The notes under the pieces are model-generated. The model was not told where the DNA came from, did no database searches, and saw nothing but the letters and a program-made list of their open reading frames with translations. A program made the translations under genes and the position numbers. A stretch of 64,000 nt of DNA. It comes from a virus. This document shows positions 1-22,284 of this stretch, one piece after another. The stretch covers positions 1-64,000 of the IMG/VR virus record IMGVR_UViG_3300025012_000053; one strand, given 5' to 3'. Positions within the stretch are counted from its first letter, which is position 1, and each line of letters begins with the position of its first letter.

Positions 1-3000
1 TACAAGTCTGCCATCATTAGTACGATAATACCTGAGCTTACCTGAAGGACCAGCAGAAACACTCTGATTAAACTTACGTACTCCATATTCACTCTGAAGA
101 ACGAGTTTCGTACCTGAGAATTCTATATCTACAAGATTACGTTCAAGATATGAAGCAAGTTGTATAATAACTTTATCGATGATAGCAGGAAAGTCTATAC
201 TTATATCCGTACTTAAGATATCATAAGCTCTTTCATTGCCTGCACCATCCAAAAGATTAAGGATATTCCCTTTGATGCTTTTCTTATTAAAGAATTTACT
301 GAAGAACCTGTCTGATCCTATCCTTTCCAGTTCAGCCATGTGATAGTAGATCCTGTCAGCCATATCCTGGTTGTTTAAAAGCACTCTGGCAAGATATATA
401 AGCTGTGATGGTTGACGTACCTTACTCTCGATCTTGGCTTTTGGATCCAACTGTATACGATAATGATCATTCTCTACTTCAAATGTCATTTGTTTCACCA
501 ACTCCGGATCCTGAACATATCCTTCAGTAAGCATATCAAAGAATGATGCTGTCACTTCCGGCATACCAACCTTTACGCCAGACCCAAATACTGCTTCCAG
601 GGCTCCTGATTTACGTATATTATCGCGTAGGATACCAAGAGAAGGGAATTCTTTAATGAGCTCATCACTTAAAACAATAGAACTATATTTAATTGCTCTT
701 ACAGTACCATCTTTACCTATTGAATAAACTACAGGCTTTAATATCTTACCAAGTGAAAACTCTGATCCAAAACCTATGTTCTTAAGTTGTTCAAATCGTT
801 CCGGAAGCATGAATCCCTGGCCATCACCAATAGCAAAGTTATCCTTGAATGCCTTCATCAACATTGGAAGCTTCGGTAGTTCATCTTTTGTAAGAATATT
901 CTCAAGAAGAGTCTGTATATCTCCTGTCTCTTTATATTGATCACCTATGATCAGGAACTTAACTCTTTCAGGAAGCCCGAATACTTTATTAACAATAGGT
1001 TTCATACCAGGTGCTGTAGCAAGAGAAAACCTCCTCATCACATCTTCTTCATTCAAAAACTGATTATTATCACCAAGGATCATCTGATTAAGAAAATATG
1101 AATTAATATAGTTATTTGCTACATAAGAATATACAAATGGAAATATAAGATCCCTGTCAATAAGATATTCACCGGTTGTATTATTGACGGAACGAAGTTT
1201 CTTTTTACCTCTCAGGTTTGAATTGATAAATCCATCCATCGAAACATCTTCTCCAAGAATTCTTTTAACATTCTTCATAGAGAACATATCGGAATCAAAT
1301 GGGACCTTATTTTCTATAATGGTATCTGCTGCCTTTTCTGCTTCACGTTTTAATAAATCCATGACCTTATCGGAATACTTTGTAATCTCTTCTTCCGATA
1401 GTGGTTTTTTAACTATGTCGCGTTTACCGATTACCTCCTGTAATAATCTGAGATTAATAAACTTACTTTTATTATTTTCTTTTATACCTGAAAGCTGTGG
1501 AGAACTGTTTATCTGTCTTATTGCATCTTCTATTGAAGTTCGGACTTGTGCAATAGTAAGTACATTGATCTTTGCCCCGAGAACATTATTCCTTTCATTG
1601 GGATATAGTGCCTGGAAGTATTTCTCTCTTCCTTCACTTGAATATCTTATCCTGTCAATGAATCCTGCAACAAAAGTCCTTACTATAAAATCCTGTGTAC
1701 TCTCATCTTTTTGTTTTATCCCAAATAGATTTTCATTGAATCCTATATTCCGTATGCCATCATGATCAAATACTGAGAAGATCTTATTCTTCCCGGTCAA
1801 GAATATATTATGCTTAAAATAATCAGACCTGAGATGATTTGGAATAGACAGAGATATGCTCCCGCCTTTTAATTCTCTTGTATTAATAAGACTAAATAAT
1901 ACATTATGAGCAAATGAAGATGGCGACCACATGTATTTACGTTTCTTTGCAACATCCCTGACATTAGTTGCCCTTAGATTAGCATTACTATACATCATAA
2001 GCCTGGATAATCCCCTTAATAGATTACCGCTCTCTGCGAGTATGTCTTCTGTAGTATAGTAAAGATCCGCTGCTTCTTCTCCTGATTCGATAGCATCCTG
2101 AGTAATTGTCTCTTTTGCTTTTCCTATAAGTACAGAAATCCTTGATATGAATCCTTCAAGATCATTATATATAGCAGTAACATCTGATTCTACATTCTGA
2201 ATGTTATTAGCAAGCAGTCCCATTCCCATCTTCTTAAGGAATGATCTTATAAGTTCAAGTCGATTATCTTTAAATTCATTTTTATTAGGAGCCCACCAAC
2301 CTTTAACGAATTTATCAACAGAATCCTTATCAGGTAATGAATCAACGATATTCTCTTTTAACTGACTTTCTATTCCAAGATGAGGACCAAAATATGAACC
2401 GGGAATATAAGATATAGCATATGTACCTGCTCCTTCCCATTTCTTTTCTACAAGAAATAGATTTTTTTGCTTCTGGTTATTAAAGAGATTGATGATACTC
2501 CGATAAGTATTTACATTCATATATTTCTCAAAATGTCCCTTTATATCATCAATATTAAGATCATATGTTGATGATAAACGAATAATATACTCCCGGGTAC
2601 TTTCATTATCTGCCCTTGCAATAGTATTAGAGCCTATGATAGATGCTCCTGCAGGCCCGGCAACATCACTTACATCTTTATTCTCTGAGAATGCAAACAG
2701 GTTCTCATTAATAAAACGCATCGTATTTGGAAGATTGGTTCCATCTTTACCATAATTGATTCTACGCGCATCATTATTAAGATTCTTTATATACTCGACT
2801 ATTGCATATGATCGTGGTTCTTTACCATTATTTCTCCATTGTTCTTCAACCTGTTTTATAAACTCACTATTTTCTGGCTGTAAACCTTCAAAGAGTTGCA
2901 ATGTCCTGATATATGCTTCTCTCCACCCCATATACTTACCGGTAGCAAGTTTAATATTGGAAAGGAAATCTTTTACAACTGCTGACATCTTTGCTTCCTG

Positions 3001-6000
3001 GTTAAAATCATCAGACTCCATGATATGTTCCTTCATGTTAACCCTGTCAACAATCTTGTCATAATATTCTTTTATTTCCTCTGTAGATATGGTTGTATCA
3101 ACGGTTATCTCTCCTGCAGAACTGAAGTCCCAATTTTGATATATATCATTGACAAGAAGATTGTAGTTGTCAATTACTGTCTTGTAATATCCGGCTTCTT
3201 TTCCATTCTCTGCTATCTCATTAAGAGAAGTTTTTGCTTTCTTAAGTCTCTTCCCTTCTTTTAATAATATTATATAATCCTGTGTTATTACATCTTTTGC
3301 AATATCAAACATCTCTCTTCTGGTTACAGGGAAACCATCAAATCCAAGTGCATGAATCCTTAAAAACTCATCCTGTATTATTGCCCTGGCATTACGATAT
3401 ACATCAATGGCATGTGAAAAACTACCAGTATCCTGTCCGTAAAGAGAAATAATATTACGCATAGACCGGGTAATACCAATGCCAGTATATTTACTCTTTG
3501 TGAAATAACCTCCTTCAATAGTCTCAAAGAACCTATCAAGACTATTCATGTTCATATTAATAAACCCAAGATTCTTAGCGAGCCAGTTGAAGAATCTCTT
3601 TAGTATGTTATCAACAGTTGTAAGTTTCTTTTGTTGATAATCCTGAAACTTCTCGGCAAGTAATTCCTCTATCTCATCCACTGATCTGTCAGCATACTCT
3701 TTAAATTGATTCCTGAAGGCATTAACGATCATATTACGTTCTCTCTGGCTGAGATGTTCATTGAAGATCTTATGGAACGTCTCATGCCTTATTATCTTCT
3801 TAAATGTCATGCCACCGCGTTCCATTGCCCAGATAACTTCATCCCGGTATAAACCATAAAGACTTCTTCCATCTTCCATCCCGGATAAAGTCATCTCATC
3901 AACAAAATACAATACTTCTTTTCCCTCTTTTGATATGTTAGGGATGAATTTCTCAAGTAGTTTACGAGCTTCTTCCTGAGTTATTGCTTCACCAGGATCC
4001 TGTCCCACGTTAAGCATATTCCGGGTCCTTCTTCTATTTACTATTTTATCCTGAACGCTATTAACAGCTTTGTCTATTTTAGCTCCTATAGTCTTTGGTT
4101 CATCTTTAGCTGTCTCTGGTTTCTTATCCAGATCTATTTGTATTTGTGTACGGTTTATTGATGATAGTTTACTTGCCAGAAGATCCTCGAGCTGAACTAT
4201 GTTCCTATTAATATCTTTCCCAAGTTCATTGATCCCCTGTGGTCCATTCATCATAAGGGGTAGGTTCAAAGATGTGTGATTACCATCCTGATCGAATGTT
4301 AGTATCTGATGTAATTGTTCTGAGGTAACAAGCGCTACCTCATGTTCCTTCCTGAGTTCATCAAACTCCTGTTTACTTATTCCTTCAACCAATGTTTGCT
4401 GATTGTCTTTTATTTGTAACAAAAGTGTTTCAAGCCTGGTTATATTTTCTTCATCGGTAAAGCTTTTTGTCTCATCAAGAAATTCGGTTACATCTCTGGC
4501 ACCGCGACCTATTGATATCTGTTCTCTTGCCATCTCCTTATAGATTTTAAGAAGATGTTCATAATAATTGGTTGATGAATTATGTTCACTCAAGAGATGT
4601 TTTGCCTGTGTTATATATTTAACCGATGGCTTGCCATCTGTATATGTTGTTATCCTTTTCTTAATGACCCAGGGATTATCACTATTAGCCTTAGCGAGTA
4701 TATTAAGAGCTATCTGTGCTGTTCCCTTACCTGCAATAAGTTTATTCTGGTCAGTTACATATTCAACAATATCTGATTTGTTATCCTTACGAAGAATATA
4801 CCCGCCTTGTTTCTTTGGATGCTTTTTAAACTCATATGTATAATCAGGATTAGTAAGTTCCGTTGGACCAAGATACTGTTCCATCTCTTCCTGGCTCTTA
4901 ACTTCTACCCTCTGTTCTCCTGGTCCATAGAATCCCGGGATGATAGTAGCTGATAATTCAGCAATCTTATTGAACTGTTCTTCTGTTACATTTGGAAATC
5001 CTCTTTCTTCAAACTCATCCTGGTAATCTTTATATTTATAGTTACCATCTTTAATACTCTGTATCTCTCCATCAGCATTGACCTCAAAATTCTTATAGAA
5101 CCTTTTAAGAAATTCATTTACTCCTGGCTCAGAAAGTCTTCCTATTCCCAAAGCCTCAAAAGTATCTATAGCAGAAGTAAAATCAGATAACTTCTGCATA
5201 AGATTATCACTATTACGTATCTTCCTTGCAGTAAGTCTTATGAACTGTTCTTTACGTGTGTGCTCTTCTCCATCCTTAGTTGTTTTACGCTGAATAATAA
5301 GATATGGGACACCCGGGAATAACTTCTTATCTTTTATACTAAACATCTCGATAGTGAAAGCAAGAGTCTCTTTTAATGGTGAAGAAAAGATGCTCTCCGC
5401 TTTTGCAAGTAACCTCTTAAGAAATCCAGTTCCCTGATCCTGAATTGTATCTGAATAAGTATAGGATAACTGTTCTGCTTTTCTTATTGTTCCTTCTGCA
5501 AGTATTGTAGGACCAGTTTCAAGTTTAAGAGTTCCCTCTATTCCTGCAGATAAACTATTTGATACATTGCCGGCAGCTTCACTCCTGGATAACAGATCAA
5601 GACCAAAATCATCTTCAAGAAGCTCAGCCTGACCCATGATGCCAATCTGTTCCCACTTTCCATTACCTGTTGGACCTGGAAGAGGAGAACCATCTATATT
5701 GATCTGCTGTGCCACTATCCATATCTGGTAATCCTTAATATCGGGATTGTAAACCCTTATATATTTTACCTTGGATCCACTTCTTATATATGGTGTACTG
5801 TCTGATTTATTATCCCTGCTCTTGATAGGATAATATGAAGGAAACCTGACAGATCTTGTATTACCATCAGAAAGATCAAGAAGAAACTCACCTCCGGTAG
5901 ATGGTATATTATCAATACTCATCTCTTCATCTTCTGCGGGAGAATCTTTAATATCAGAGAATGGCACCTGTTCTTCAGTTTCTCCTGTTGCTTTTAATGC

Positions 6001-9000
6001 CTGCGCAGGTGCAACCCCGGCGCCTTTTATTGTCATACCATGAATTCTTGCTTCAAACTCAAGTCTGTTTGCAAATGCATTACGTATATCAATATCCCTT
6101 TGTTTATTATCTTCTGGAACAATATCATGTACACGGAATCTCCATGCCCCAGGATCCTTTTCATAACTCTTGATGAAGATATAATCCTTTGACCGGGATA
6201 AGGCTGTGTACATACCTTCATTAAACTTACGCTGCGCTGCCTTGAGATATGTATCAAAATCTTTTGGATCCATATCGACATATACTTCATCATACTGAAG
6301 ACCTGCTACAGCATCATACTGCATTATATCAACACCAAGACCTTCATAGAACTTAGCATCCTGCTCATTACTGACTACTATAACCCTGCTCCTTTGATTT
6401 GCTTTCTGATGTATTGCTATCTGTCTTTTAAGATCTGCCTTGCTGCCTGATATGTGAACTCCATTAGCAGGATTGCCAAGATCGGCATCAGCAACACCAA
6501 GGATTGTATTTACCTTTGATGGCACACCAAGGAACCTGTTCTGGATACTTATTATTGCTGAATTGCCGGACCGGAATACTGCAGTAAGAGGATTAAGATG
6601 ACGTACATTGATCATATCACCATAGAAATTATTGATAGCAGGGAAATCCACGTTCCTGTTTGATGACTGTGAAGGATCTCCAAATACATATACTCTTAAT
6701 GGTTTCTTTCTTGTCTCATTTGCCTTAGTTACATTTTCTGCTATCATATCAAGCTGTGAAGCATCAAGCCTGGCTACTTCATCAATAAGAAGAATATTGA
6801 ATTTATCATCCTTTAGCAGCTGATAATCAAATGTATCTACAAGTCCGGTATTGGTTACTCCTTCAAGACTTTTCTTTAATACACCAAGAGCATTCTCATG
6901 AGTGCTCAGACCAATTACTGATTCTGGTTTAAAGCCCATCATCCTGGATAACCACTTCGCAAATATTGTTGTCTTACCTGATCCAGCCAATCCCTTCAGA
7001 TAATACCATCCTTTATACTCCTGCTTAGACTGTGTTTTTGTTAAAGAGATATTAAGTTCACGTATAGCTTCACGAAGAGCTATATCCTGTTGATTACTCG
7101 GGATCTTATCTTCAGTATTCAATAGAGAATTCTCTACTTCTATTATCTCTTCAATCTTGATTTTACTTTCAAGCATCCTGGTTAACTTGTCAAGGGCAAG
7201 AAGAGATATATGTGTCTCAAGAAGCTCGAGTAGTTTCTTCTTATCTACATTATAAACAACAGGAGCGCCTTCTTTCAGTGCTGTATGTAGTTTGATTGCA
7301 TCCTTATCAATAAAGAAGTCATCAATGGCATTTGCCTTGGTTATATTAAGATTAGGATCAAACTTATTAACAATGATCTCAAGTATGTCATTGAATGCAC
7401 TGTCAGGATACTTCTTATATTGCTCAAGAGTAGTCAGTGAATATAACTTAACCATATCCATTACCTGCTGAGCAAATGTCTCTATCCTGCTATTAATTAT
7501 CTCGGTAGTTTTCTTATTTAATTCATTTTTTGCTTCATTGTTTTTCTTAACCAGTTCGATGATTTTCTCAACGAACGTACTGTCATAGGTATATTCTATA
7601 CCATCCTGCTGAGCTTTTGATGCTTCGTTAAGAATTCCTTCAAGGATATCCTTGCCAATAGTCTTCTCGATAATACTGTAGATATCTTTATTAAGATCCG
7701 ATACCTGATGTGTTTTCTTATCACGGTTAGTTATAAGACCTATGGCATTAAATAGCGAAGCGGAATAATTGATCCTGCTTTTCATATCAATCACGCTCAT
7801 CTTTTCCCGGGCCTCAGCAGCTTTAGGTCTTAATGTATTAAGATCCTCTATCGCCCTGTCGATCTTCTCAAGAAACCCCTTAAATTCATTCGTGGTGAGC
7901 AATCTCCTTCTGCCAGGGGAACTATATATCTGTTTTCTTCTATCAAGTTCTGTCAAAGCATTGTCAATAGCTGAAACATCATTATACTTATCATTACCCC
8001 TGGCTGCATGTATTATATCCTTAGCTGTATCTATAGGCTGATCAGCAAACTCTCTTTGAAACTTACGATATGTTTTCTTCTGATCCTTCGCGAATGTTTT
8101 ATCTTCAAGTTCCGGGATATTAGATAATATATCCTGAAATGACTGTGATGAACGTTCATGATCCAGACGAAGAGCCTCTCTTGTATCTATCTTCTTCTGT
8201 AATTTTATTGCTTCGTTATTAAGCTTCTCAAAATCTGGTCCTGGTTGTTTCGGACCAAAAGGTATTCCATCCTCATCAACAGGTTGGACCATGCTACCTT
8301 CTCTTGCTGCTTCGGCTTGTCTCTCCCACTCTTCTGCCTGGTTCTTTGTCCTGTTAAGATATGATCCTCTCTGGTTTATAAGTGACTGTACCTTATCAAG
8401 ATCTTCTTTGGAATAATAATCACCATTTGATATATTGTTAACAACGGTGTTAATAACATCAGATATAGGCTTCCTGCCTTTTACTGCTTCTTCTACATCC
8501 TTTGCTGTCTGAGCTTTCCTACGATAGTTCTTTCCTATATCATGGAAATAGTTATACATGGCGCCAAACTCATTAGACATATCCGGCGCAAGGCCATCGG
8601 CTACATCCCTGGCAAACCTGGTAGAAAAAGGATTCTTGGTACCATTGATATAAAAATACTCATCCTGTTCATACTGTGCTCTCTCAATATCTTTCTGAGT
8701 AACTTTTGAATCCGGTTGTTGCTGATCTTTTTTAAGTTGCGTAACCTTGTCCCTGGCATTGGCTTTCATGAACTGCTCATTAAGATAATCCGTGTATAAC
8801 TTCTCACGGGTTTTCTTTTCAAGGATCTTCCCGGTCAGTCTCTCACTATCTTTTATAAGCTTTCGAATATCATCTTTCTGCTCATCTGAAATCTGGTCAT
8901 TAGAAAGATAATCCTCATACATATTTCTCTTTACCTGTTCTCCAAAGAGTGTTTTTAAAGCTACTATATTAAACTCTTCTCTTGACTTCTCATTCTTAAA

Positions 9001-10767
9001 GTCTTCAGCACTCATGATCTGGTTACGTGCATTTTCAAATGCTTCACGCAAAGGTTTAATATCTGCCTTTGTAAACTTATTCTGATATCCTTTCTCTGCA
9101 AGTTCCTTTGGTATTGCCAGATCACGTTCCATCAGGAGATCATCTACTTCCTCAAGGTTAGTCATGCCCGGAGTAGTAGCATAGTTAAAATATAACCTTG
9201 CCAGGGCATCTTTATTTATTGTCTCAAGGTGAATATTATCAGCATTGACTGTTGCTGCCATACCTTCATCAAAAAGAAGTTTATTATAAAGAGAATACAT
9301 GAACATCCTCTCTGCCTTATCAATATCTATCTCAGTTTCATTATTTTCATTATAGTATGATTCTGTCTCTATATCCCTGACAGTACCATCTTCCTGTTGT
9401 TGTTTTATAGTTGATTTGAAAGTCTTGTAAGGAGCTGCAATATGTTGTGAATACCACTTATCATGCTTATTCATCTCTCCCTTAAGGAAAGTATAAATAT
9501 CTTCTTCCTCTTGTATCTGTTTTCTTTCCCCTACTGCTGAAGCCCTGCCTCCAACACCACCAAAGAGACTACCAACCAAAGATCCAAGAACCATATTTTT
9601 TTGACCCTCTACAGTACTAAAATTATCAATCCATTCATTTGCTATCCCAAGAGTATAGTCATCAATATTCTGTCCGAATGATTCTTTCCTCGTACTATAT
9701 GTCTGAAGGGCATGTTGCATACCTTCTTCCCATAGACCTTCTGATACAAGTCCTGTTCCTATGCCTTTCAATGATTCTCCCCATAGCGATATATCTTTTG
9801 AAGCAATAGTTCCTGCGCGTACTCCTGTCCTCATCTCTGACGCTACCTGTCCGATCTTGCCGAACATAAACTTACTCTGAATGTAGTTAGGAACTATCAG
9901 TACTCCAAGGTTCCCTTTAAATACATTAGCTGCTCCGGTAGACACAACTCCATTTATCTTTGTCTGTTGTTCAGTAGTAAGCATCTCGAATGGCTTATCA
10001 TAATCGCGCATTGACATCTTCTGCTTCTCACTGTCCTTAAAGTCTTTTGATTCAAACCCGGCTTCTCCTATTGAGTTCAGAAGTGTTGATCCATATACCT
10101 GAACTTTTTGGCCCATTATCTTTGCAGCCTCTTTTGTTGCGCCTGCTCCTGCAAGAGCCTTTCCAAGACCAAGAGCTTTTGATGCAGCACCAATACCGGC
10201 TCCGGTAAGATATGCAGATCCAAGGAAAGCAAATGAATCAAAAAGATCATCAAACCAGAATGCAGGATCCTTCATCTGTTGTAACAGGTTTCCGTTTCTT
10301 GCACTATAGGATTTATTAATCGGAAGGGATTCCCTGAGACCAGAATCCATCTTACTCATTGTATTTACAAAAGCATTATCCCATATAACATTAGGATCTG
10401 CTGTTTCCGGATCATCAAGATAATCCATACCATAAGAAACAGCTCCGGCTATATGACCTACATTCTGAGCAAACTTAGGAATAAGACTTGTACCACGCGA
10501 TACAAGGCCACTACCGAATTTATTAAAGAATGGTTGAACTTCAGCTTTCATTGACTCTTCATCCCATACAGGAACACCCTGTCCGATAAGATACTTTGCT
10601 TTACCGACAGATGTATCCATATTAAAATAAGAACCAGGTCTTTGTTCTCTTTGTTTGAATAGCTTTATTGGTAATGGTTTTTCAACAGGAAGTCCTGTCC
10701 CTTGTTCTATTATTGGACTTTCAATATCCTGGGCATCAGGGTCTACCCAGTTTCTATTAGATATCAT
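1..10767 (-). CDS. Giant virion cargo polyprotein, 3' end outside the window (>3589 aa): membrane/ejection region + SF1 helicase + zincin metallopeptidase + N-terminal part of a crAss-type virion RNA polymerase
   Basis: ATG at 10767 just after the stop of the upstream gene (MISNRNWVDPDAQDIE...). Manual translation at several places stays open in the same frame down to base 1, and the ORF track lists no stop-terminated ORF in this frame. Motifs: Gly/Ala-rich hydrophobic stretches and SEGLWEEGMQ near the N-terminus; Walker A GLAGSGKT (6970-6993), LLIDE, GDPSQ, YTALSRSK; HETFH (3772-3786) followed by EELLAE; GDGQGF...KPVVY...IKYSS...SGVKVG...IQLD (about 400-830), resembling crAss RNAP segments. 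The catalytic DxDxD motif is not seen and should lie beyond the edge. Confidence 0.85.
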   Translation of the reverse strand, partial: MISNRNWVDPDAQDIESPIIEQGTGLPVEKPLPIKLFKQREQRPGSYFNMDTSVGKAKYLIGQGVPVWDEESMKAEVQPFFNKFGSGLVSRGTSLIPKFAQNVGHIAGAVSYGMDYLDDPETADPNVIWDNAFVNTMSKMDSGLRESLPINKSYSARNGNLLQQMKDPAFWFDDLFDSFAFLGSAYLTGAGIGAASKALGLGKALAGAGATKEAAKIMGQKVQVYGSTLLNSIGEAGFESKDFKDSEKQKMSMRDYDKPFEMLTTEQQTKINGVVSTGAANVFKGNLGVLIVPNYIQSKFMFGKIGQVASEMRTGVRAGTIASKDISLWGESLKGIGTGLVSEGLWEEGMQHALQTYSTRKESFGQNIDDYTLGIANEWIDNFSTVEGQKNMVLGSLVGSLFGGVGGRASAVGERKQIQEEEDIYTFLKGEMNKHDKWYSQHIAAPYKTFKSTIKQQQEDGTVRDIETESYYNENNETEIDIDKAERMFMYSLYNKLLFDEGMAATVNADNIHLETINKDALARLYFNYATTPGMTNLEEVDDLLMERDLAIPKELAEKGYQNKFTKADIKPLREAFENARNQIMSAEDFKNEKSREEFNIVALKTLFGEQVKRNMYEDYLSNDQISDEQKDDIRKLIKDSERLTGKILEKKTREKLYTDYLNEQFMKANARDKVTQLKKDQQQPDSKVTQKDIERAQYEQDEYFYINGTKNPFSTRFARDVADGLAPDMSNEFGAMYNYFHDIGKNYRRKAQTAKDVEEAVKGRKPISDVINTVVNNISNGDYYSKEDLDKVQSLINQRGSYLNRTKNQAEEWERQAEAAREGSMVQPVDEDGIPFGPKQPGPDFEKLNNEAIKLQKKIDTREALRLDHERSSQSFQDILSNIPELEDKTFAKDQKKTYRKFQREFADQPIDTAKDIIHAARGNDKYNDVSAIDNALTELDRRKQIYSSPGRRRLLTTNEFKGFLEKIDRAIEDLNTLRPKAAEAREKMSVIDMKSRINYSASLFNAIGLITNRDKKTHQVSDLNKDIYSIIEKTIGKDILEGILNEASKAQQDGIEYTYDSTFVEKIIELVKKNNEAKNELNKKTTEIINSRIETFAQQVMDMVKLYSLTTLEQYKKYPDSAFNDILEIIVNKFDPNLNITKANAIDDFFIDKDAIKLHTALKEGAPVVYNVDKKKLLELLETHISLLALDKLTRMLESKIKIEEIIEVENSLLNTEDKIPSNQQDIALREAIRELNISLTKTQSKQEYKGWYYLKGLAGSGKTTIFAKWLSRMMGFKPESVIGLSTHENALGVLKKSLEGVTNTGLVDTFDYQLLKDDKFNILLIDEVARLDASQLDMIAENVTKANETRKKPLRVYVFGDPSQSSNRNVDFPAINNFYGDMINVRHLNPLTAVFRSGNSAIISIQNRFLGVPSKVNTILGVADADLGNPANGVHISGSKADLKRQIAIHQKANQRSRVIVVSNEQDAKFYEGLGVDIMQYDAVAGLQYDEVYVDMDPKDFDTYLKAAQRKFNEGMYTALSRSKDYIFIKSYEKDPGAWRFRVHDIVPEDNKQRDIDIRNAFANRLEFEARIHGMTIKGAGVAPAQALKATGETEEQVPFSDIKDSPAEDEEMSIDNIPSTGGEFLLDLSDGNTRSVRFPSYYPIKSRDNKSDSTPYIRSGSKVKYIRVYNPDIKDYQIWIVAQQINIDGSPLPGPTGNGKWEQIGIMGQAELLEDDFGLDLLSRSEAAGNVSNSLSAGIEGTLKLETGPTILAEGTIRKAEQLSYTYSDTIQDQGTGFLKRLLAKAESIFSSPLKETLAFTIEMFSIKDKKLFPGVPYLIIQRKTTKDGEEHTRKEQFIRLTARKIRNSDNLMQKLSDFTSAIDTFEALGIGRLSEPGVNEFLKRFYKNFEVNADGEIQSIKDGNYKYKDYQDEFEERGFPNVTEEQFNKIAELSATIIPGFYGPGEQRVEVKSQEEMEQYLGPTELTNPDYTYEFKKHPKKQGGYILRKDNKSDIVEYVTDQNKLIAGKGTAQIALNILAKANSDNPWVIKKRITTYTDGKPSVKYITQAKHLLSEHNSSTNYYEHLLKIYKEMAREQISIGRGARDVTEFLDETKSFTDEENITRLETLLLQIKDNQQTLVEGISKQEFDELRKEHEVALVTSEQLHQILTFDQDGNHTSLNLPLMMNGPQGINELGKDINRNIVQLEDLLASKLSSINRTQIQIDLDKKPETAKDEPKTIGAKIDKAVNSVQDKIVNRRRTRNMLNVGQDPGEAITQEEARKLLEKFIPNISKEGKEVLYFVDEMTLSGMEDGRSLYGLYRDEVIWAMERGGMTFKKIIRHETFHKIFNEHLSQRERNMIVNAFRNQFKEYADRSVDEIEELLAEKFQDYQQKKLTTVDNILKRFFNWLAKNLGFINMNMNSLDRFFETIEGGYFTKSKYTGIGITRSMRNIISLYGQDTGSFSHAIDVYRNARAIIQDEFLRIHALGFDGFPVTRREMFDIAKDVITQDYIILLKEGKRLKKAKTSLNEIAENGKEAGYYKTVIDNYNLLVNDIYQNWDFSSAGEITVDTTISTEEIKEYYDKIVDRVNMKEHIMESDDFNQEAKMSAVVKDFLSNIKLATGKYMGWREAYIRTLQLFEGLQPENSEFIKQVEEQWRNNGKEPRSYAIVEYIKNLNNDARRINYGKDGTNLPNTMRFINENLFAFSENKDVSDVAGPAGASIIGSNTIARADNESTREYIIRLSSTYDLNIDDIKGHFEKYMNVNTYRSIINLFNNQKQKNLFLVEKKWEGAGTYAISYIPGSYFGPHLGIESQLKENIVDSLPDKDSVDKFVKGWWAPNKNEFKDNRLELIRSFLKKMGMGLLANNIQNVESDVTAIYNDLEGFISRISVLIGKAKETITQDAIESGEEAADLYYTTEDILAESGNLLRGLSRLMMYSNANLRATNVRDVAKKRKYMWSPSSFAHNVLFSLINTRELKGGSISLSIPNHLRSDYFKHNIFLTGKNKIFSVFDHDGIRNIGFNENLFGIKQKDESTQDFIVRTFVAGFIDRIRYSSEGREKYFQALYPNERNNVLGAKINVLTIAQVRTSIEDAIRQINSSPQLSGIKENNKSKFINLRLLQEVIGKRDIVKKPLSEEEITKYSDKVMDLLKREAEKAADTIIENKVPFDSDMFSMKNVKRILGEDVSMDGFINSNLRGKKKLRSVNNTTGEYLIDRDLIFPFVYSYVANNYINSYFLNQMILGDNNQFLNEEDVMRRFSLATAPGMKPIVNKVFGLPERVKFLIIGDQYKETGDIQTLLENILTKDELPKLPMLMKAFKDNFAIGDGQGFMLPERFEQLKNIGFGSEFSLGKILKPVVYSIGKDGTVRAIKYSSIVLSDELIKEFPSLGILRDNIRKSGALEAVFGSGVKVGMPEVTASFFDMLTEGYVQDPELVKQMTFEVENDHYRIQLDPKAKIESKVRQPSQLIYLARVLLNNQDMADRIYYHMAELERIGSDRFFSKFFNKKSIKGNILNLLDGAGNERAYDILSTDISIDFPAIIDKVIIQLASYLERNLVDIEFSGTKLVLQSEYGVRKFNQSVSAGPSGKLRYYRTNDGRLV

Positions 10768-15115: not shown

Positions 15116-15406
15116 TTATTTTTGAGTGACTTTATTAGCAATCGATTCAGCCGGTACCATATACAAAGATACAAGATCGTGAAGAACTATCGTATGATGA
15201 TTAGTATCATTTACAAAAGTAAACTTTACTTTGATATAGGTATCTCTTAATCTTGCATTATCACCAGCATTTCTTCCTGCATCAATCCTCCATGTTCTCA
15301 GTAGTCTCCTACAGTTGGAAGAATTAATAGGAATAACACCAGTATCCTGATAATCATTTCGTACCTGTATCTTATCTATCGTTCTTGTATGTATAGGAAT
15401 TCCCAT
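15116..15406 (-). CDS. Detached C-terminal segment of the muzzle (tail stabilization) protein, 96 aa
   Basis: TIDKIQVRNDYQDTG...RRLLRTWRI...RLRDTYIKVKFTF...IVLHD matches my recollection of crAss muzzle C-termini; it has its own ATG 2 nt after the stop of the 2291-aa ORF. Confidence 0.65.
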   Translation of the reverse strand: MGIPIHTRTIDKIQVRNDYQDTGVIPINSSNCRRLLRTWRIDAGRNAGDNARLRDTYIKVKFTFVNDTNHHTIVLHDLVSLYMVPAESIANKVTQK

Positions 15407-15408
15407 GA

Positions 15409-18400
15409 TTATAATGTTTTACATAGTCGAATATTAAAGCAGTCAACAATATCCCTTGCTTCATATGTTATTGCAGCATATGAATGATAGAATGTTATTG
15501 TCATATCAGAATCAGAGCACCAGTATGATCCTTTTAATCCGAGCTCAGAGAATGTATTATATCCGACAAAAACACTTCCTCCGGGTAATGCTGTATATCC
15601 ACTTGAATTTGTTGCTCCGGTATTAGGACTTGTCCAATGAGCAGTACCAACTTCTTTCATTGCTCCTCCGGCTAATGACGATCCACCAAGAGCAGCAACA
15701 AGAGCCATCCAGTCTGCTATAGTAGGAACTCTCCATCCTGTCTCCAGGGCACCACTACGTGTAAGATAAGCTATGTTATTCGCGCTTTGAGCTGCATAAC
15801 CATTATAGTAACGTCCATATGTAGATAACTGATCTGTAATAGGAGTAAAGTCAGCTATATAAGGAATGATAGCATTCTGAAGTGTATTATAACTAAGAGC
15901 TGATGCTATTATTGATCCTCCATTGACAAACTTGGTTCCTTTAAAGTTTTGTATTATCCATCTTCTGCCGGCAACATCAATAGTATCATACTCATATCCT
16001 GCATTATCTGTAAGCGGTCCTGTTATTGGTGGTGTTGCTGTAGTAAATGTGAGATTTTCTCCATAGCCAACAAGTGCTACACTATTAACGGCATATGCTC
16101 TTATATAGTGTGTTGTCCCATTGGGAAGATTATCAATAAGTTTATAGAATGATCCTATACCACTACCTGAAGAATAGTTTTGTACCGTTGGATCTGGAGA
16201 TGTACCTACGCAGAATCCACGTCCTGTAATTGTAAGTCCACTGCCTCCTGCATATATTACATTACCATTAGCTCCTGCTTCAGTATATCCTATACCTGTT
16301 ATTGAATCAGTTGTAACTGTAGGTGCTACATTCTCATTCATTACTATAGTTATAGGAGCGCCATATCCATCACCCTTGCTATTTGTGGCATAGGCTGCTG
16401 CATAATATGTTTCTCCAGGGGTAAGACTACTTCGGGTTACACTATATGATCCTGTTCCTGAATCACCATCATCATATTTAGGATTATTATATGCGACAGG
16501 ATCCGTACCAAAGAAGAATCCTTTTTCTGTAATTGCCACTCCTCCATCAGATGTTGCATTACCATTAAGGACAACACTTACTGTAGTAAGACCGGAATAT
16601 GCATTCGTTACAACAGTGGGCACATAATAAGCTATTGTTGTAAAGCTTATCTCATTACTATAAGTTATATCTACAGAGTTTTGCGCGTATGCCCTAACAT
16701 AGTACGTGATACCATCACTACCACTATTCATTATATGTGAAAATTCTGTAATACAATCATTATAACTATCAGCTACAGTAGGAGAGCCAGATGTGTTCCA
16801 ACAGAAACCGAATCTTGTTATGGCAGCACCACCTGTACTTAATAATATAGCACTTAACGTAGCACCAATTGCGGTTATTGATGTTGCATTATATTGACTT
16901 AATACAGGAGCCGTCTGGGTTTTTGAACTGAATATCTTCTCATCTCCATATGATGTTCCTGCACCATTAGTTGCATAAGCACGAACATAATATAATGTTC
17001 CAGGACTAAGAGAAGTAATAGAACTTACAAAAGTGCCTATTCCAGAACCATCGATAGTCTTTGAATCACTTGTTGTAGGTCCTGAACTTGTCTTCCAACA
17101 AACACCCCTGGCAGTAACAGGATCGCCACCATCACTTGTGATCGTTCCACCACATGTAGCCGTAGTATAATCTATAGATGTTACATCAGCAGTTGACACG
17201 TTAGGGGGAGATACATTTATTGTCGTGAATGACTTTCTCACTCCATATGCTGTACCTACACTATTCATTGCATAGGCCATAACATGATATCCCCTTCCTG
17301 ATAATAATCCTGTAAGAGCTATATCAAAAGATCCAAGACCCGTTCCAGTGTCTGCTACTTTTACTCCATCCGCAACAGGATCAGAATAGTCATCTATACA
17401 GTAATATATTCCTCGTTCATATACTGTAGATCCATTCCCGGAAAGAACATTTCCTCCTGCAGTAGCTGTTGATGATCCAAAGACTGTTATCTCATTTGTC
17501 TCAACAGAAGCTGTAGTATATACTGTAGTTGTCCTGGCCCAGTTGGTTCCATATGATACACCTTCACTATTGACTGCATAGGCTCTCATGTAATATGTAG
17601 TACCCTGAGAAAGCCCGGTAATATCAACACTGAATGTTCCTTCTCCTGTACCTGAATCAATATGATCTCCTGCTATCGTAGGATTAGTAGATGTTCCATA
17701 AGCAATACCTCTTTGTGTTACTCCCCCAAGAGCATTGCCATCATGAGTAACATTCCCTCCTGCTCTTATAGACACATGACTCAATACAGTAGGTTCCGTT
17801 GTCAATACCGTAGCATAATCAAGATCGAGAGTAGAAAATCCTCTTGATGTTGCACTATAACCTGTACCTTTCTTATTTATCGCATAAGCCCTCACATAAT
17901 ACTGAGTGTTGTCAGTAAGACCTTCCATATCTGCTGAAAACGAATCGGATCCAGTTCCAGCTGTAACAATATCATCAGCTGTTGTAGGTGGATCAACTAA
18001 ACTGTAACACAATCCTTTCTCAGTGATTTCCGCACCACCATCATTTGTTATTACACCACCACTTCTTGCAGATGATATTCCTATCTGATCAACAGCATTT
18101 GTAGTAAGAGTAGGAACGAATAGATTTGTTGTATTAAAACTTTTCTCATCACTATAAACGGGTGTTGCACTAAGACTATTTATCGCGAATGCTCTCACGT
18201 AATATTGAGTTGTATCTGTTAACCCGGTAATTGTATATTCAACAACACCTTCAACTCCTGTAAGTATTGTATAGTTATCATCGAGTATAGTAGGATTAGG
18301 AGATGTAGACCAACACAATCCGCATGTCAATGGACTGTCTCCTCCGTCTTCAACCAGGGTCCATCCTGTAGTGGCTTCCTCTTCTCCTATATTACTTATA

Positions 18401-21400
18401 GCGGTAAGAAGTATTACCGGGGGGATTGTAGTTTTATGTATCTTATTGGATCCGTAACCGGTGCCTACGCTATTTGTAGCATATGCTCTGACATAATAAG
18501 TATTTGCAGGAAGAAGTCCTGTTACCGTGCTTGCATAATCAGCAGACCCGGTACCATCAGAAGTATGACTATTAACATCAATAGTGGGATCGGCAGTAGG
18601 ACCATAACAAACTCCTTTGGCTATTATAGGAATTCCTCCATTAGAGATTATATCCCCACCACTTACACATCCCGTTGATGTAGGAGTAGTTATATCTTCA
18701 GTTTCCAATGATGGAGCATTTATATTACTAACGAGTTCAGGAAGATCTGCCAGGTATACTTCAGATGATATCTCAAAATTGGTAAATGTTGCTACAATGT
18801 TTGGCATTGGATTGACAATCACCTCGACAAAACTATCAAAGTACTTACCAAAATATTGTCCCGGATAACCATAATCTTCTTTATAAAGATGCTTACTATA
18901 TGCTGAGAACAATTTATTATCGTATATCATATAAAAATATGCCAGGGTATCAGCAAAACCGGTGAATGCATCAATAACCTCATTGAAGATAAGAGCTATA
19001 CCGGCATCAGCATGATTCTTAATGATGAACCAGATCTCATTATACATGGGATTAAAGACCATGAAGAACCCTGTATTATTAAGATTTAGACTCATGATAT
19101 TATCTGAATTGGAATATACATCGGATATACCATTGAGATATGAGTTTATACCTCTTATGGTAGATATATTCTCAAGGTTATTAAGGAACCTGTTTATCGT
19201 TCTTCGCTTATGATCATACCAGTAAATGCCATTGATACTTTCAGCAATAGAAAATTTTGTACTTAATCCAATTTTAGTAGATATATAATCATATCTCTGC
19301 AGGATCTCGCCCTGTCCGAGTGTTGTACTCTTACCTTCTGTATCAGATATTACAGATCTATCCATGACACTTAATGAACCAACAGCATTATCCTGAAAGA
19401 ATAACAGGTAGTTTTTCCATGCAGCGAGTTTATTAACTGGTCCAAAGGTTTTATTAACAATTATAGATTCATTTGAAAGCCATTGAGTCCAGGGATCTAT
19501 TGTCTCTCTTCCCTCTTTCATATTGGAAGCCATGACAAGACAGTCGTTATAATATTCCGGATTATAGTCAAATGGCGCCGGAAGAAACTTCTTAGCATCA
19601 GCAGTACGTTTATATACTGTATTCTCGAGATAAAGATCTGTCCAGTTATTAAGATATGTTATTCCATCGGCATTGCTTATTGTCTCTGTGAACTCTGCAT
19701 TTCCTTTCTCTCTTATCCAGTATGCTGTAGGAACATTATCAAAGATCCTGTGCCAGCAGTCATCGAGTCTGTATGCAAGGTTTACACTCGTCTCACATGG
19801 AAACATTACCACTGATGCAAATGTATCAACAGAAGCAATGCCTGATGCCTTTTGGTACCATTCATTATAGTAACTTGTAAGATGATCAGTGTAGGCAATG
19901 TAAGTATCTCCCTGGTTAAAATAAGCCGTGGCATTACCAGTACTGACAGCAACAATATCTCCAGCTGCTATATATTCATTCTTTGTCCGATCCTCATAGG
20001 AATGACCACCATATTGAGAACCATAAAGATTAGTCCTGTAATTGGCAATCATATATTTATCAGCAGCTATTATTCCCGATACATCAAGAGCAGTTCCTAA
20101 CTTAATAAGAAGTGATGTTCCAAGATTACCAAGCTTACGGACTCCTGACGGCGCTGTCCATCCGGATATAGGAATAAAATTAGGGATATCCCCAAATGAA
20201 GTACTTATTGCTTCTACATCTGGCGTGACTGCTGCATTCTGCATCCTTGATTCCTGTACTGCATACCACTTACCAAGAGCAAGGGAAACAGGAGTATGAT
20301 ACTTTAGTGCTTCATGTTGTGTGCCATATGCATTATTTACTCCGGTACAAGTACCAATGAGTTGAAGAAAATCATTCGAACTCTGCGTAAAGTTTTTATA
20401 GAATGATATCTCCGGTGAGAACATCACGAGATGTTTCTTTGGTATGGCAGCAAGGCCACTATATGCACTTGTACTTGAATATGATGGCTTGCCTACTATC
20501 CACTCAGAACCATTATAAGGATATATCCAGCTTAAGTTTCCCTGTAGTTTAACAGTCTTATTGTCATCAGTGCGCTTTACATATACTATCTGGACATATT
20601 TTACTTCAGTAGGAAGATTTGTAAGGGTGAATACAATCTCTATGGGCCATGAATTTGTTGCTCCAAGACTTGTATAAGAAGATCCTGTCTTACCGCTTAC
20701 ATCAGTTCCGTGCTCGGGAGTTCGTATATCTCCTATCCACTTAACAGGACTCGGACGACCCTTGTCATCAAAACCAACACAACCGACCCTGTATATCTCT
20801 CCTCTGGTAAGTGTTCTTATAGACTGGTTGAATACCGGGCTTTCCGGACCATTATAATAATTAGGCACTGCAACAGGCACTACACCAAAGGTTTTATTAT
20901 TACCAAGATTGTCGATAGGCTTTTCATTAACAGACTGGAATATATAACTTACATTAGGACCCTCTCCGCCTCTTGTTGTTCCATCCTGGTGAAATGCAAA
21001 GTTTGTTCCCTGGCTATCAAATGTAATATCATTGCTTTTACATATAGCATCTATGTCAAAAGGAAGATCATCTATTGAATCAACAGAATCTATATTTACT
21101 CCTGATGAATTGTATTTCAACCACGTGTTTCCATAAGTAAGACTATTCATCCAGTAACCACCATCTGTTTCATATAGATAACAGGAACGAGTACTTGCAT
21201 ATCTATATGCTCTGGCATCATAATCAAAATCAAACTCGTTCTGTTTTATTCCGGTAGCAAAAAGAATATTGAACTTGGCAGCAATAGATTTACATCTGAA
21301 TGGATTGTTTATCATCACAAACTCAGAATACAGGTATTCTCCTGAATTATAAAGTCCATCATCAGTGATATATACTGTTGAATCTACCGGTTTAACTTCT

Positions 21401-22284
21401 ACTATATAAACCTTTGGTACCTCATTAAGAGCTGAGTAATGAACTGCTATAACCTCTATCCTGTCATAATCAGTATCTATATTTTCTATCTTTATTACTA
21501 TTCCTTTGCCTGAAGATTGATTAGCTCCTGAAGCATTAAGACGATCTGCACCTTTAAATGAAATAGTATTCTGCAGGGACATAGAACTTGTTGTCAGCGG
21601 TATCATCCTACATAATGGAGAGAAGTTGCTGGCCGGACCATTAAGTTTATAAAGACGATATCCATATTGAACCATACCAACAGGGATACTTCCACTTACC
21701 ATTTGCATGAATTCCGGGGTAGAAAGATCCATCTTCTGTACTATATTGAACTCATCAGGATCAAGATATGAGTTGCTTCCTGATTTTATCAATCCGTCAT
21801 CTGTAAGATAAGTTGCTACATTGGCATAACGAAGATCATTGTAATTATCACTCCAGTAGATCTTGACTATATCCTCATTCTCATAAAATGAAAGAGCATC
21901 TTCAATAGGATTCTGCATTGAGAAGTTAAGGATCCCGGAATAAAGAAGCCTGATATCAGCCATCACTATCTGATCATCCGCAAAATCAGTTTCCCATATC
22001 TTTCCATTAGAAGCAGTAGGAGAAGGAGTATCATCATCAGTAGTAAAGAGTATCATCTTGTCTCTTACTCTAACACTACCTATTATCCTGTGATTTGTAG
22101 CTCCTATTGAATCAAAGTCCCCATCTAACGGATAATTACCCTTTATGATTGTAAGTCCTCCATTACGAGCAGGATCATTGCCAGTGATACGAAAGTTACG
22201 ACAGTCATACATGCTTTCATTATCAACCTTGTTAAAAGCTGTATCCCTGTCAAGCTTCTTATATGTATTCTTAAATACAGGCAT
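15409..22284 (-). CDS. Muzzle/tail stabilization protein (N-terminal ~1180 aa) fused to nine FN3-like repeats and a C-terminal FISUMP (Fib_succ_major) domain
   Basis: N-part: YENEDIVKIYWSDNYN, GMVQYGYRLY, RGEIYRVG, GDTYI, QRYDYIST. Nine ~97-aa repeats ending in Y(Y/H)VRAYAxNxxGxxYG-like motifs (about 16040-18720). C-terminal WIIQNF...YGRYYN...GWRVPT...GATNSSGYTALPGG...YWCS...IRLCK. Confidence 0.8.
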   Translation of the reverse strand: MPVFKNTYKKLDRDTAFNKVDNESMYDCRNFRITGNDPARNGGLTIIKGNYPLDGDFDSIGATNHRIIGSVRVRDKMILFTTDDDTPSPTASNGKIWETDFADDQIVMADIRLLYSGILNFSMQNPIEDALSFYENEDIVKIYWSDNYNDLRYANVATYLTDDGLIKSGSNSYLDPDEFNIVQKMDLSTPEFMQMVSGSIPVGMVQYGYRLYKLNGPASNFSPLCRMIPLTTSSMSLQNTISFKGADRLNASGANQSSGKGIVIKIENIDTDYDRIEVIAVHYSALNEVPKVYIVEVKPVDSTVYITDDGLYNSGEYLYSEFVMINNPFRCKSIAAKFNILFATGIKQNEFDFDYDARAYRYASTRSCYLYETDGGYWMNSLTYGNTWLKYNSSGVNIDSVDSIDDLPFDIDAICKSNDITFDSQGTNFAFHQDGTTRGGEGPNVSYIFQSVNEKPIDNLGNNKTFGVVPVAVPNYYNGPESPVFNQSIRTLTRGEIYRVGCVGFDDKGRPSPVKWIGDIRTPEHGTDVSGKTGSSYTSLGATNSWPIEIVFTLTNLPTEVKYVQIVYVKRTDDNKTVKLQGNLSWIYPYNGSEWIVGKPSYSSTSAYSGLAAIPKKHLVMFSPEISFYKNFTQSSNDFLQLIGTCTGVNNAYGTQHEALKYHTPVSLALGKWYAVQESRMQNAAVTPDVEAISTSFGDIPNFIPISGWTAPSGVRKLGNLGTSLLIKLGTALDVSGIIAADKYMIANYRTNLYGSQYGGHSYEDRTKNEYIAAGDIVAVSTGNATAYFNQGDTYIAYTDHLTSYYNEWYQKASGIASVDTFASVVMFPCETSVNLAYRLDDCWHRIFDNVPTAYWIREKGNAEFTETISNADGITYLNNWTDLYLENTVYKRTADAKKFLPAPFDYNPEYYNDCLVMASNMKEGRETIDPWTQWLSNESIIVNKTFGPVNKLAAWKNYLLFFQDNAVGSLSVMDRSVISDTEGKSTTLGQGEILQRYDYISTKIGLSTKFSIAESINGIYWYDHKRRTINRFLNNLENISTIRGINSYLNGISDVYSNSDNIMSLNLNNTGFFMVFNPMYNEIWFIIKNHADAGIALIFNEVIDAFTGFADTLAYFYMIYDNKLFSAYSKHLYKEDYGYPGQYFGKYFDSFVEVIVNPMPNIVATFTNFEISSEVYLADLPELVSNINAPSLETEDITTPTSTGCVSGGDIISNGGIPIIAKGVCYGPTADPTIDVNSHTSDGTGSADYASTVTGLLPANTYYVRAYATNSVGTGYGSNKIHKTTIPPVILLTAISNIGEEEATTGWTLVEDGGDSPLTCGLCWSTSPNPTILDDNYTILTGVEGVVEYTITGLTDTTQYYVRAFAINSLSATPVYSDEKSFNTTNLFVPTLTTNAVDQIGISSARSGGVITNDGGAEITEKGLCYSLVDPPTTADDIVTAGTGSDSFSADMEGLTDNTQYYVRAYAINKKGTGYSATSRGFSTLDLDYATVLTTEPTVLSHVSIRAGGNVTHDGNALGGVTQRGIAYGTSTNPTIAGDHIDSGTGEGTFSVDITGLSQGTTYYMRAYAVNSEGVSYGTNWARTTTVYTTASVETNEITVFGSSTATAGGNVLSGNGSTVYERGIYYCIDDYSDPVADGVKVADTGTGLGSFDIALTGLLSGRGYHVMAYAMNSVGTAYGVRKSFTTINVSPPNVSTADVTSIDYTTATCGGTITSDGGDPVTARGVCWKTSSGPTTSDSKTIDGSGIGTFVSSITSLSPGTLYYVRAYATNGAGTSYGDEKIFSSKTQTAPVLSQYNATSITAIGATLSAILLSTGGAAITRFGFCWNTSGSPTVADSYNDCITEFSHIMNSGSDGITYYVRAYAQNSVDITYSNEISFTTIAYYVPTVVTNAYSGLTTVSVVLNGNATSDGGVAITEKGFFFGTDPVAYNNPKYDDGDSGTGSYSVTRSSLTPGETYYAAAYATNSKGDGYGAPITIVMNENVAPTVTTDSITGIGYTEAGANGNVIYAGGSGLTITGRGFCVGTSPDPTVQNYSSGSGIGSFYKLIDNLPNGTTHYIRAYAVNSVALVGYGENLTFTTATPPITGPLTDNAGYEYDTIDVAGRRWIIQNFKGTKFVNGGSIIASALSYNTLQNAIIPYIADFTPITDQLSTYGRYYNGYAAQSANNIAYLTRSGALETGWRVPTIADWMALVAALGGSSLAGGAMKEVGTAHWTSPNTGATNSSGYTALPGGSVFVGYNTFSELGLKGSYWCSDSDMTITFYHSYAAITYEARDIVDCFNIRLCKTL

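What the first reader, a model, noticed from the sequence alone, without database searches (positions are those of the whole stretch)
15116..22284. Muzzle gene split in two by a captured FN3x9 + FISUMP adhesin arm
Seen: the muzzle-like sequence stops at ...TFTNFEISSEVYL (about 18750), continues into about 1100 aa of FN3-like repeats and a FISUMP domain, then ends; 2 nt later a 96-aa ORF starts with MGIPIHTRTIDKIQVRNDYQDTG. From recollection of crAss muzzles, SEVY is followed almost directly by the T-x-D-K-I...N-x-Y-Q-D-T-G tail. Inference: an insertion broke the gene, the missing C-terminal strands are supplied in trans, and the tail tip gains long flexible arms ending in a C-type-lectin-fold receptor-binding domain taken from a Bacteroidota surface protein.
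Basis: partly seen in the sequence, partly recalled or inferred. Interest (0 to 1): 0.8.

Follow-up and report, generated by a model that had tools for sequence, protein, structure and literature searches.

The report
Two-gene crAss muzzle with lectin arm
In this uncultured crAss-like phage the tail-tip "muzzle" gene is cut in two by a stalk-plus-lectin cassette that ends in its own stop codon. The 96-residue gene that follows encodes exactly the missing muzzle end and is kept across a whole clade, so the tail tip is probably built from two chains and carries its own adhesin arms.

Summary
On the minus strand a 2291-aa ORF (22284..15409) is followed by TAA, 2 nt and a 96-aa ORF (15406..15116). 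The large ORF holds the crassvirus muzzle body (residues 1-1177), nine ~100-aa FN3-like repeats and a C-terminal FISUMP domain. I tested both ORFs against a profile of the last 200 residues of 16 unsplit muzzles. The large ORF matches positions 3-105 and the small ORF positions 108-190 (E 2e-22 and 2e-31), so the halves are exactly complementary.

The split is not an assembly error. The same two proteins occur on 31-32 independent contigs. Twelve further standalone 95-97-aa homologues exist (66-88% identity). Four split muzzles form one clade (support 100) nested among unsplit ones. The small ORF is the most conserved part and the lectin the least.

A cryo-EM precedent exists: the split nozzle of Pseudomonas phage A1002.

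The scan has already noted this clade (FN3x3+FISUMP form) and other split muzzles on other genomes. I found no published description. It is a new variant of a known kind, of moderate to high interest.

The parts
15409..22284 (-). Large muzzle subunit gene (2291 aa, P0001): muzzle body, linker, 9 FN3-like repeats and FISUMP, ending in its own TAA stop
18754..22284 (-). Muzzle body, residues 1-1177 (crAss_MUZ PF25731, E 4.9e-157). It ends at ...EISSEVY-L, which corresponds to about gp44 residue 1285
18718..18864 (-). First half of the crAss_MUZ_C domain (PF25729 profile positions 3-50 of 83), residues 1141-1189. The domain is cut off here
18715..18753 (-). Short linker (residues 1178-1190) between the last muzzle strand and the first repeat. 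This is the 5' junction of the inserted cassette
16015..18714 (-). Stalk of nine FN3-like repeats of ~100 aa (residues ~1191-2090), each with a YYVRAYA-type motif
15412..15993 (-). FISUMP (Fib_succ_major) domain, residues ~2098-2291, with a predicted C-type-lectin/FGE-like fold. The domain ends at the ORF end
15407..15411 (-). 3' junction: TAA stop of the large ORF plus a 2-nt spacer (tc) before the next ATG. The frame changes here
15116..15406 (-). Small muzzle subunit gene (96 aa, P0002). It equals the last ~85 residues of an unsplit muzzle (second half of MUZ_C, gp44 1284-1371)

Best explanation
This is a heritable two-gene muzzle. In the ancestor of a clade of environmental crAss-like phages, a cassette (linker, FN3-like repeats, FISUMP lectin domain and its own stop codon) was inserted into a ~12-residue loop about 85 residues before the muzzle C-terminus. 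The remainder acquired an ATG 1-2 nt after the new stop and is translated as a separate, tightly coupled 95-97-aa protein. That small protein supplies in trans the last beta-strands of the muzzle, which are the second half of the MUZ_C domain and correspond to gp44 1284-1371. The large chain now ends in a free stalk of nine Ig-like domains tipped by a C-type-lectin-fold domain. If the muzzle is a hexamer as in phicrAss001, there would be six such arms per virion. Each arm would be roughly 35-40 nm long, assuming ~3.5-4 nm per Ig-like domain. Their most likely role is to bind a surface glycan or protein of the Bacteroidota host. Shown here: the gene anatomy, the complementary homology, conservation and a single origin of the split, and the fold of the terminal domain. 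Inferred: trans-assembly, stoichiometry, exposure of the arm and its ligand.
For: Complementary halves: in an HMM of unsplit C-termini, positions 3-105 fall in the large ORF and 108-190 in the small ORF. This holds for all four split genomes or pairs. The pairing of P0121 with P0014 and of P0129 with P0013 rests only on matching contig lengths and counts. Pfam MUZ_C splits as 4-43 and 46-83 in the relative L014 but runs 3-80 contiguously in unsplit L003.

The AF2 model of the small ORF has gp44 1284-1371 as its best hit (Z 5.5, rmsd 2.6 A over 80 residues; next hit Z 3.9). Foldseek gives probability 1.0.

Conservation: 12 standalone homologues at 66-88% identity all start at the same position. 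L013/L014 carry a 1699-aa ORF and a 95-aa ORF with a TAA-t-ATG junction. P0121 and P0129 share the same EISSEVY|E junction. The split forms make one clade, SH-aLRT 100, nested among unsplit muzzles.

Identity gradient against relatives: small ORF 60-72%, muzzle 52-57%, stalk 34-50%, lectin 32-39%. Rough dN/dS is 0.32 for the small ORF.

The exact proteins occur on 31-32 contigs from five sources. The 2-nt spacing equals the spacing between the preceding tail gene and the muzzle start. The genome has no second MUZ_C.

FISUMP model: pLDDT 84. Top structural matches are TvpA (Z 9.0), FGE-like proteins, TaqVP, phage Mtd (Z 6.1) and many CTLDs.

Precedent: cryo-EM of phage A1002 shows a nozzle completed in trans by the C-terminal propeller and platform strands of a second protein (PMC13730344).
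Against: DNA-level junctions are available for only two lineages (the window and L013/L014); the other members are known as proteins only. The position of the loop on the outside of the assembly is inferred from nozzle topology and was not read from coordinates. The ligand of FISUMP domains is unknown in any system. dS is near or past saturation, so the dN/dS values are rough.
Confidence: 0.75

Rival explanations
1. The two-chain design is the same, but the arm is not a host-receptor binder. It tethers virions to non-host material such as mucus, biofilm matrix, particles or polysaccharide, in the way Ig-like decorations are proposed to act for gut phages.
For: Ig-like or FN3 domains on phages, including Crassvirales, mediate adherence to mucus and epithelia (PMC13370021). 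The repeats resemble the N-terminal domain of a Bacteroides surface arabinanase (NF049889, 7 stretches), which suggests a glycan context. The phage keeps other fibre genes (earlier notes).
Against: The arm sits on the tail tip, not the capsid. The terminal lectin is the fastest-evolving part (32-39% identity), as expected for a host-range determinant. CLec-fold domains are proven phage receptor binders (Mtd).
Confidence: 0.2
2. One polypeptide is made after all, by programmed frameshifting, bypass or stop readthrough across the junction, so the lectin arm would be an internal loop insertion.
For: The two ORFs are only 2 nt apart. Some crAss-like phages recode stop codons (general knowledge; note).
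Against: The stop is TAA and the downstream frame is shifted. The shift differs between lineages: 2-nt spacer in the window, 1-nt in L014. An ATG is conserved at the same position in all 13 standalone homologues. The FISUMP domain ends at the stop as it does in bacterial proteins. The same spacing separates other genes of this operon.
Confidence: 0.04
3. The gene is a broken pseudogene or a misassembly, and the 96-aa ORF is a non-functional remnant.
For: Metagenome-derived record.
Against: Identical proteins occur on 31-32 independent contigs. The split has been kept through ~45% protein divergence with both ORFs intact. The small ORF is the best-conserved part. The genome has no other muzzle gene.
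Confidence: 0.03
4. The large chain is a self-sufficient muzzle, and the 96-aa protein has taken on another job, such as assembly factor, plug or adaptor.
For: Nothing direct. The conserved new N-terminus (M-x-T-P-V-H-T-R-T) could be a new interface.
Against: The residues that are invariant in unsplit C-termini (NDYQDT, R37, R52, and the near-invariant W39, H76, D77) are all retained in the standalone proteins. That argues for the same structural role. The large chain lacks half of the MUZ_C domain.
Confidence: 0.07

Closest known systems
Muzzle protein gp44 of Bacteroides phage phicrAss001 (PDB 7QOK/7QOL/8CKB; Pfam PF25731 + PF25729; Bayfield et al. 2023, PMC10172136)
   Same: The N-terminal ring-joining/propeller/IG/crass-domain body is homologous. 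The small ORF corresponds to gp44 1284-1371. Genome position is the same, after the tail ring / tail tubular genes.
   Different: gp44 and all ~30 other relatives examined are single chains with a short loop at this site. Here the chain is cut and a 1114-aa stalk-plus-lectin module ends the first piece. The paper reports length variation only from insertions in the crass and IG2 domains.
Split nozzle of Pseudomonas podophage A1002 (gp42 nozzle-base + gp39 nozzle-rope; PMC13730344)
   Same: A podovirus nozzle-type protein is encoded by two genes. The C-terminal propeller and platform strands are supplied in trans, and the other end of one chain serves as a long fibre-bearing appendage.
   Different: It is an unrelated phage lineage. 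In A1002 the complementing strands sit at the end of a 620-aa fibre-dock protein that binds separate fibre dimers. Here they are a bare 96-aa protein and the appendage (stalk plus lectin) is covalently part of the large chain. The A1002 arrangement is shown by cryo-EM; this one is inferred.
FISUMP / TIGR02145 (Fib_succ_major) surface proteins of Bacteroidota and Fibrobacter, and CLec-fold variable proteins (TvpA, TaqVP, phage BPP-1 Mtd)
   Same: Same domain family and same fold class. The architecture of repeat array followed by a C-terminal FISUMP domain is shared with many Bacteroidota proteins.
   Different: There is no lipoprotein signal and the module is fused to a virion protein. There is no DGR: no template repeat and no reverse transcriptase in the 94-kb genome. 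Identity to any bacterial protein is at most ~50%.

Membership tests
Crassvirus muzzle protein (PF25731 crAss_MUZ + PF25729 crAss_MUZ_C) | Significant match to the crAss_MUZ body | tested here: met
   E 4.9e-157, 525 bits against a cut-off of 27. phmmer hit to 7qok_A at E 4.6e-19.
Crassvirus muzzle protein (PF25731 crAss_MUZ + PF25729 crAss_MUZ_C) | Complete MUZ_C domain in the same polypeptide | tested here: not met
   Only profile positions 3-50/56 of 83 lie in the large ORF. The rest lies in the separate 96-aa ORF. The pair together is a muzzle; neither chain alone is.
Crassvirus muzzle protein (PF25731 crAss_MUZ + PF25729 crAss_MUZ_C) | Conserved place in the tail module, after the ring / tail tubular genes | tested here: met
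   Same order as in phi14:2 and cr108_1. The module is collinear with L014.
Crassvirus muzzle protein (PF25731 crAss_MUZ + PF25729 crAss_MUZ_C) | Hexameric gate assembly at the tail tip | not testable with these tools
   Needs cryo-EM or proteomics. Assumed from phicrAss001.
FISUMP / Fib_succ_major (PF09603, TIGR02145) | Profile match over the curated cut-off | tested here: met
   PF09603 67.3 bits (cut-off 33.9). TIGR02145 43.3 bits (cut-off 41.65).
FISUMP / Fib_succ_major (PF09603, TIGR02145) | C-type-lectin/FGE-like fold | tested here: met
   AF2 pLDDT 84. VIA matches: TvpA Z 9.0 (rmsd 4.3 A, 163 aligned), FGE paralogue Z 7.2, TaqVP Z 6.6, Mtd Z 6.1, then dozens of CTLDs. Foldseek alone was not significant.
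FISUMP / Fib_succ_major (PF09603, TIGR02145) | Lipoprotein or secretion signal typical of the bacterial family | tested here: not met
   The domain is internal to a phage structural ORF that starts with the muzzle N-terminus.
Split (two-gene) nozzle as in phage A1002 | Second chain completes the propeller/platform of the first by strand complementation | not testable with these tools
Support is indirect only.
DGR-diversified CLec receptor-binding protein (Mtd-like) | Template repeat matching the lectin's variable region, plus a reverse transcriptase | tested here: not met
   There is no second copy of the FISUMP-coding DNA in the 94-kb genome and no RVT_1 hit.

The most novel reading that the evidence does not exclude
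The loop ~85 residues before the muzzle C-terminus may be a general plug-in site, topologically where canonical podovirus nozzles carry their fibre dock. Whole receptor-binding cassettes with their own stop codons could be dropped in there, because the last strands re-associate in trans. The arm and the gate would then be mechanically coupled: ligand binding by the lectin pulls on the strand next to the non-covalent seam and helps open the muzzle. Combined with the other split sites noted by this scan, this would make the muzzle a main host-range platform of environmental Crassvirales, not only a gatekeeper.
Probability: 0.2. Interest if true: 0.75.

Novelty: new variant of a known kind. Interest (0 to 1): 0.6.

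Why it matters
The muzzle is the hallmark tail-tip protein of Crassvirales and has so far been described as a single-chain gatekeeper. How these very abundant phages recognise hosts is largely unknown.

A conserved two-gene muzzle carrying a covalently attached stalk and lectin would be the first candidate receptor-binding device built into the muzzle itself. It shows how a phage can capture a complete bacterial-type surface module, stop codon included, without losing an essential structural protein. It also gives a natural example of a beta-rich domain that tolerates fission.

Practically, annotation pipelines will call the 96-aa gene 'hypothetical' and the large gene an intact muzzle. The variable lectin tip (32-39% identity between clade members) is an obvious marker for host-range prediction.

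Tried and rejected
(1) DGR diversification of the lectin. There is no template-repeat copy and no reverse transcriptase, so this is rejected.

(2) Frameshift or readthrough fusion. Rejected on the differing spacers and frames and the conserved ATG.

(3) Misassembly. The idea is rejected indirectly by the 31-32 independent contigs and the conserved relatives.

(6) The metagenome-contig scan returned only unsplit relatives.

(7) Pfam on the 96-aa ORF alone gave no hit, even at E 10. Its relative in L014 gave positions 46-83 at E 0.002.

(8) Foldseek against the PDB for the FISUMP model gave no significant hit. The wide VIA search was needed.

(9) Possible independent splits at the same loop. Four short representatives (P0270, P0320, P0327, P0274) start with M in or near the loop. 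They sit on single contigs of 567-3067 bp, and the IMG/VR scans run for three of them (P0270, P0320, P0327) found no locus. This stays unresolved.

(10) A specific bacterial donor was not found. The best identities are 33-50%.
Full report
ANATOMY

All genes in this part of the window lie on the minus strand and are tightly packed. A 2291-aa ORF (22284..15409, P0001) ends in TAA. After two bases (tc), an ATG opens a 96-aa ORF (15406..15116, P0002) in another frame.

Pfam and PHROGs identify P0001 residues 1 to ~1177 as a crassvirus muzzle: crAss_MUZ at E 4.9e-157 and phrog_28748 at E 2e-116. The crAss_MUZ_C domain is matched only over profile positions 3-50 of 83, at residues 1141-1189, and then stops.

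After ...EISSEVY-L (residue 1177, window ~18754) comes a ~13-residue linker. Nine FN3-like repeats follow, spaced 96-102 residues apart, each with a YYVRAYA-type motif. Last comes a Fib_succ_major/FISUMP domain, which runs to the end of the ORF.

IS THE 96-aa ORF THE MISSING END?

Yes.
- tblastn places it on the last ~80 codons of unsplit muzzle genes in Cellulophaga phage phi14:2 (g071, 1340 aa, a protein found in virions by MS/MS), cr108_1, cr116_1 and IAS virus.
- I built a profile from the last 200 residues of 16 unsplit muzzles (191 positions). The large ORF matches positions 3-105 (residues 1079-1180, E 2e-22). The small ORF matches positions 108-190 (E 1.6e-31). Only two profile positions are lost at the break.
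- A profile of the small ORF and its relatives hits the solved phicrAss001 muzzle gp44 at residues 1288-1369 of 1371 (E 5e-11). The end of the muzzle part of P0001 aligns to gp44 1258-1291.
- An AlphaFold2 model of the small protein (pLDDT 72) has gp44 1284-1371 as its best structural match (Z 5.5, rmsd 2.6 A, 80 residues; next hit Z 3.9). Foldseek gives probability 1.0.
- The genome holds no other MUZ_C copy.

IS THE SPLIT REAL AND KEPT?

The exact P0001 and P0002 sequences are recorded on 32 and 31 contigs from NCBI, JGI, ENA and Logan.

Twelve further standalone proteins of 95-97 aa share 66-88% identity with P0002. All start at the same position, with M-x-T-P-V-H-T-R-T.

In IMG/VR, two contigs (L013, L014) carry a 1699-aa ORF with muzzle, about three FN3-like repeats and FISUMP. 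It is followed by TAA, one base, and a 95-aa ORF. Pfam MUZ_C positions 4-43 fall in the large ORF and 46-83 in the small one. The whole tail module is collinear with the window.

Two more large subunits (P0121, 2286 aa; P0129, 2283 aa) have the same EISSEVY|E junction and nine collinear repeats.

By contrast, about 30 other muzzles from IMG/VR, JGI and GenBank are single ORFs with a 10-15-residue loop at this site.

In a maximum-likelihood tree of the muzzle bodies, the four split forms are one clade (SH-aLRT 100) nested among unsplit ones. One gain explains the distribution (quick search, midpoint root).

Conservation against relatives falls in this order:
- small ORF: 60-72% identity
- muzzle body: 52-57%
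- stalk: 34-50%
- lectin: 32-39%

Rough dN/dS values are 0.32 (small ORF), 0.19 (muzzle body) and 0.49 (lectin), with dS near saturation. The residues invariant in unsplit C-termini (NDYQDT, two arginines) are invariant in the standalone proteins too.

Together these results exclude misassembly and pseudogene decay. They argue that the small protein keeps its ancestral structural role.

ONE CHAIN OR TWO?

- The stop is TAA and the downstream frame is shifted.
- The shift differs between lineages: 2-nt spacer here, 1-nt in L014.
- An ATG is conserved at the same position.
- The FISUMP domain ends at the ORF end, as it does in bacterial proteins. In L014 it covers profile positions 1-187 of 187 and ends 2 residues before the stop; the family consensus ends in the same place.
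- The same TAA-nn-ATG spacing separates the preceding tail gene from the muzzle start.

Programmed frameshifting is therefore unlikely. Translational coupling of two genes is the simple reading.

THE CAPTURED MODULE

The repeats have 973 database relatives at E <= 1e-5. The named ones are almost all Bacteroidota (Pedobacter, Flavobacterium, Arcticibacter, Paludibacter, Saprospiraceae, Bacteroidales). Many carry long arrays of the repeat together with FISUMP/TIGR02145 or DUF1566. The repeats also match the N-terminal domain of the Bacteroides BT0360-type arabinanase model.

The FISUMP domain has 285 small relatives. The named ones are Bacteroidota, at 33-45% identity. In 50,697 GenBank phage records only four weak hits exist.

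The AlphaFold2 model of the domain (pLDDT 84) matches these structures:
- the DGR variable protein TvpA (Z 9.0)
- FGE-type proteins
- TaqVP
- the Bordetella phage receptor-binding protein Mtd (Z 6.1)
- dozens of C-type lectin domains

Published work also groups Fib_succ_major with CLec-fold targets (PMC5758913). No DGR is present here. GC content shows no step at the junctions, which fits an old acquisition. No donor can be named.

MECHANISM

Best reading, about 0.75: a two-chain muzzle. The 96-aa protein completes the last domain of the large chain in trans. The large chain's new free C-terminus projects a stalk of nine Ig-like domains tipped by a lectin-fold binder.

If the muzzle is a hexamer as in phicrAss001, the virion would carry six such arms. 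The lectin is the fastest-evolving part, as expected of a host-range determinant. Binding to non-host material is the main functional rival.

A structural precedent now exists. In Pseudomonas podophage A1002, cryo-EM shows a nozzle whose missing propeller and platform strands are supplied by the C-terminal ~150 residues of a second, fibre-bearing protein (PMC13730344). In canonical nozzles the fibre-dock domain precedes those last strands. The insertion site here may therefore be topologically equivalent to a fibre dock. That is an inference, not a test.

WHAT COULD NOT BE DONE

There is therefore no co-fold, no read-level check and no DNA for most clade members.

PRIOR NOTES AND LITERATURE

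This scan has already reported the FN3x3+FISUMP form of the same clade on other genomes. It has also noted many other split muzzles cut at other positions. Those are AI notes. I re-derived the FN3x3 form independently and did not test the others.

Full-text searches found no paper describing a split crassvirus muzzle or a FISUMP-bearing muzzle. The phicrAss001 paper mentions only length variation from insertions in the crass and IG2 domains.

VERDICT

This is a new variant of a known kind: a crassvirus muzzle organised like a split nozzle. Interest is 0.6.

Noticed in passing
proteins P0270, P0320, P0327, P0274: Four other short representatives (88-117 aa) of the muzzle C-terminus begin with M in or near the same loop but belong to other lineages. 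They may be independent splits at this site. All sit on single contigs of 567-3067 bp, so they could be fragments.
   Followed up: partly
L026:8867-10279: In IMG/VR contig 3300025073_000235 the muzzle frame is open for only 470 aa before the C-terminus. Its near-identical relative L025 has a 1399-aa ORF. This is either a stop or frameshift elsewhere in the muzzle, or a sequencing error.
   Followed up: no
window 15409-22284 and 15116-15406: The exact large and small proteins are also recorded on a 158,175-bp contig, far longer than this 94-kb virus record. That contig could be a concatemer, a chimeric assembly or an integrated or host-linked copy, and might give a host link.
   Followed up: no
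window 16015-18714: The FN3-like repeats hit the NCBIfam equivalog model for Bacteroides arabinan endo-1,5-alpha-L-arabinosidase (BT0360 type), profile positions 48-124, in seven stretches. The stalk repeat is therefore the same kind as the N-terminal domain of a surface glycoside hydrolase.
   Followed up: no
window 1-10767: A minus-strand frame of more than 3589 aa runs off the window edge, downstream of the muzzle and two cargo-like genes (801 and 640 aa).
   Followed up: no
window 18754-22284: The muzzle body is at most 28% identical to any GenBank phage muzzle. This phage therefore belongs to an environmental crass-like lineage with no cultured or named close relative.
   Followed up: partly
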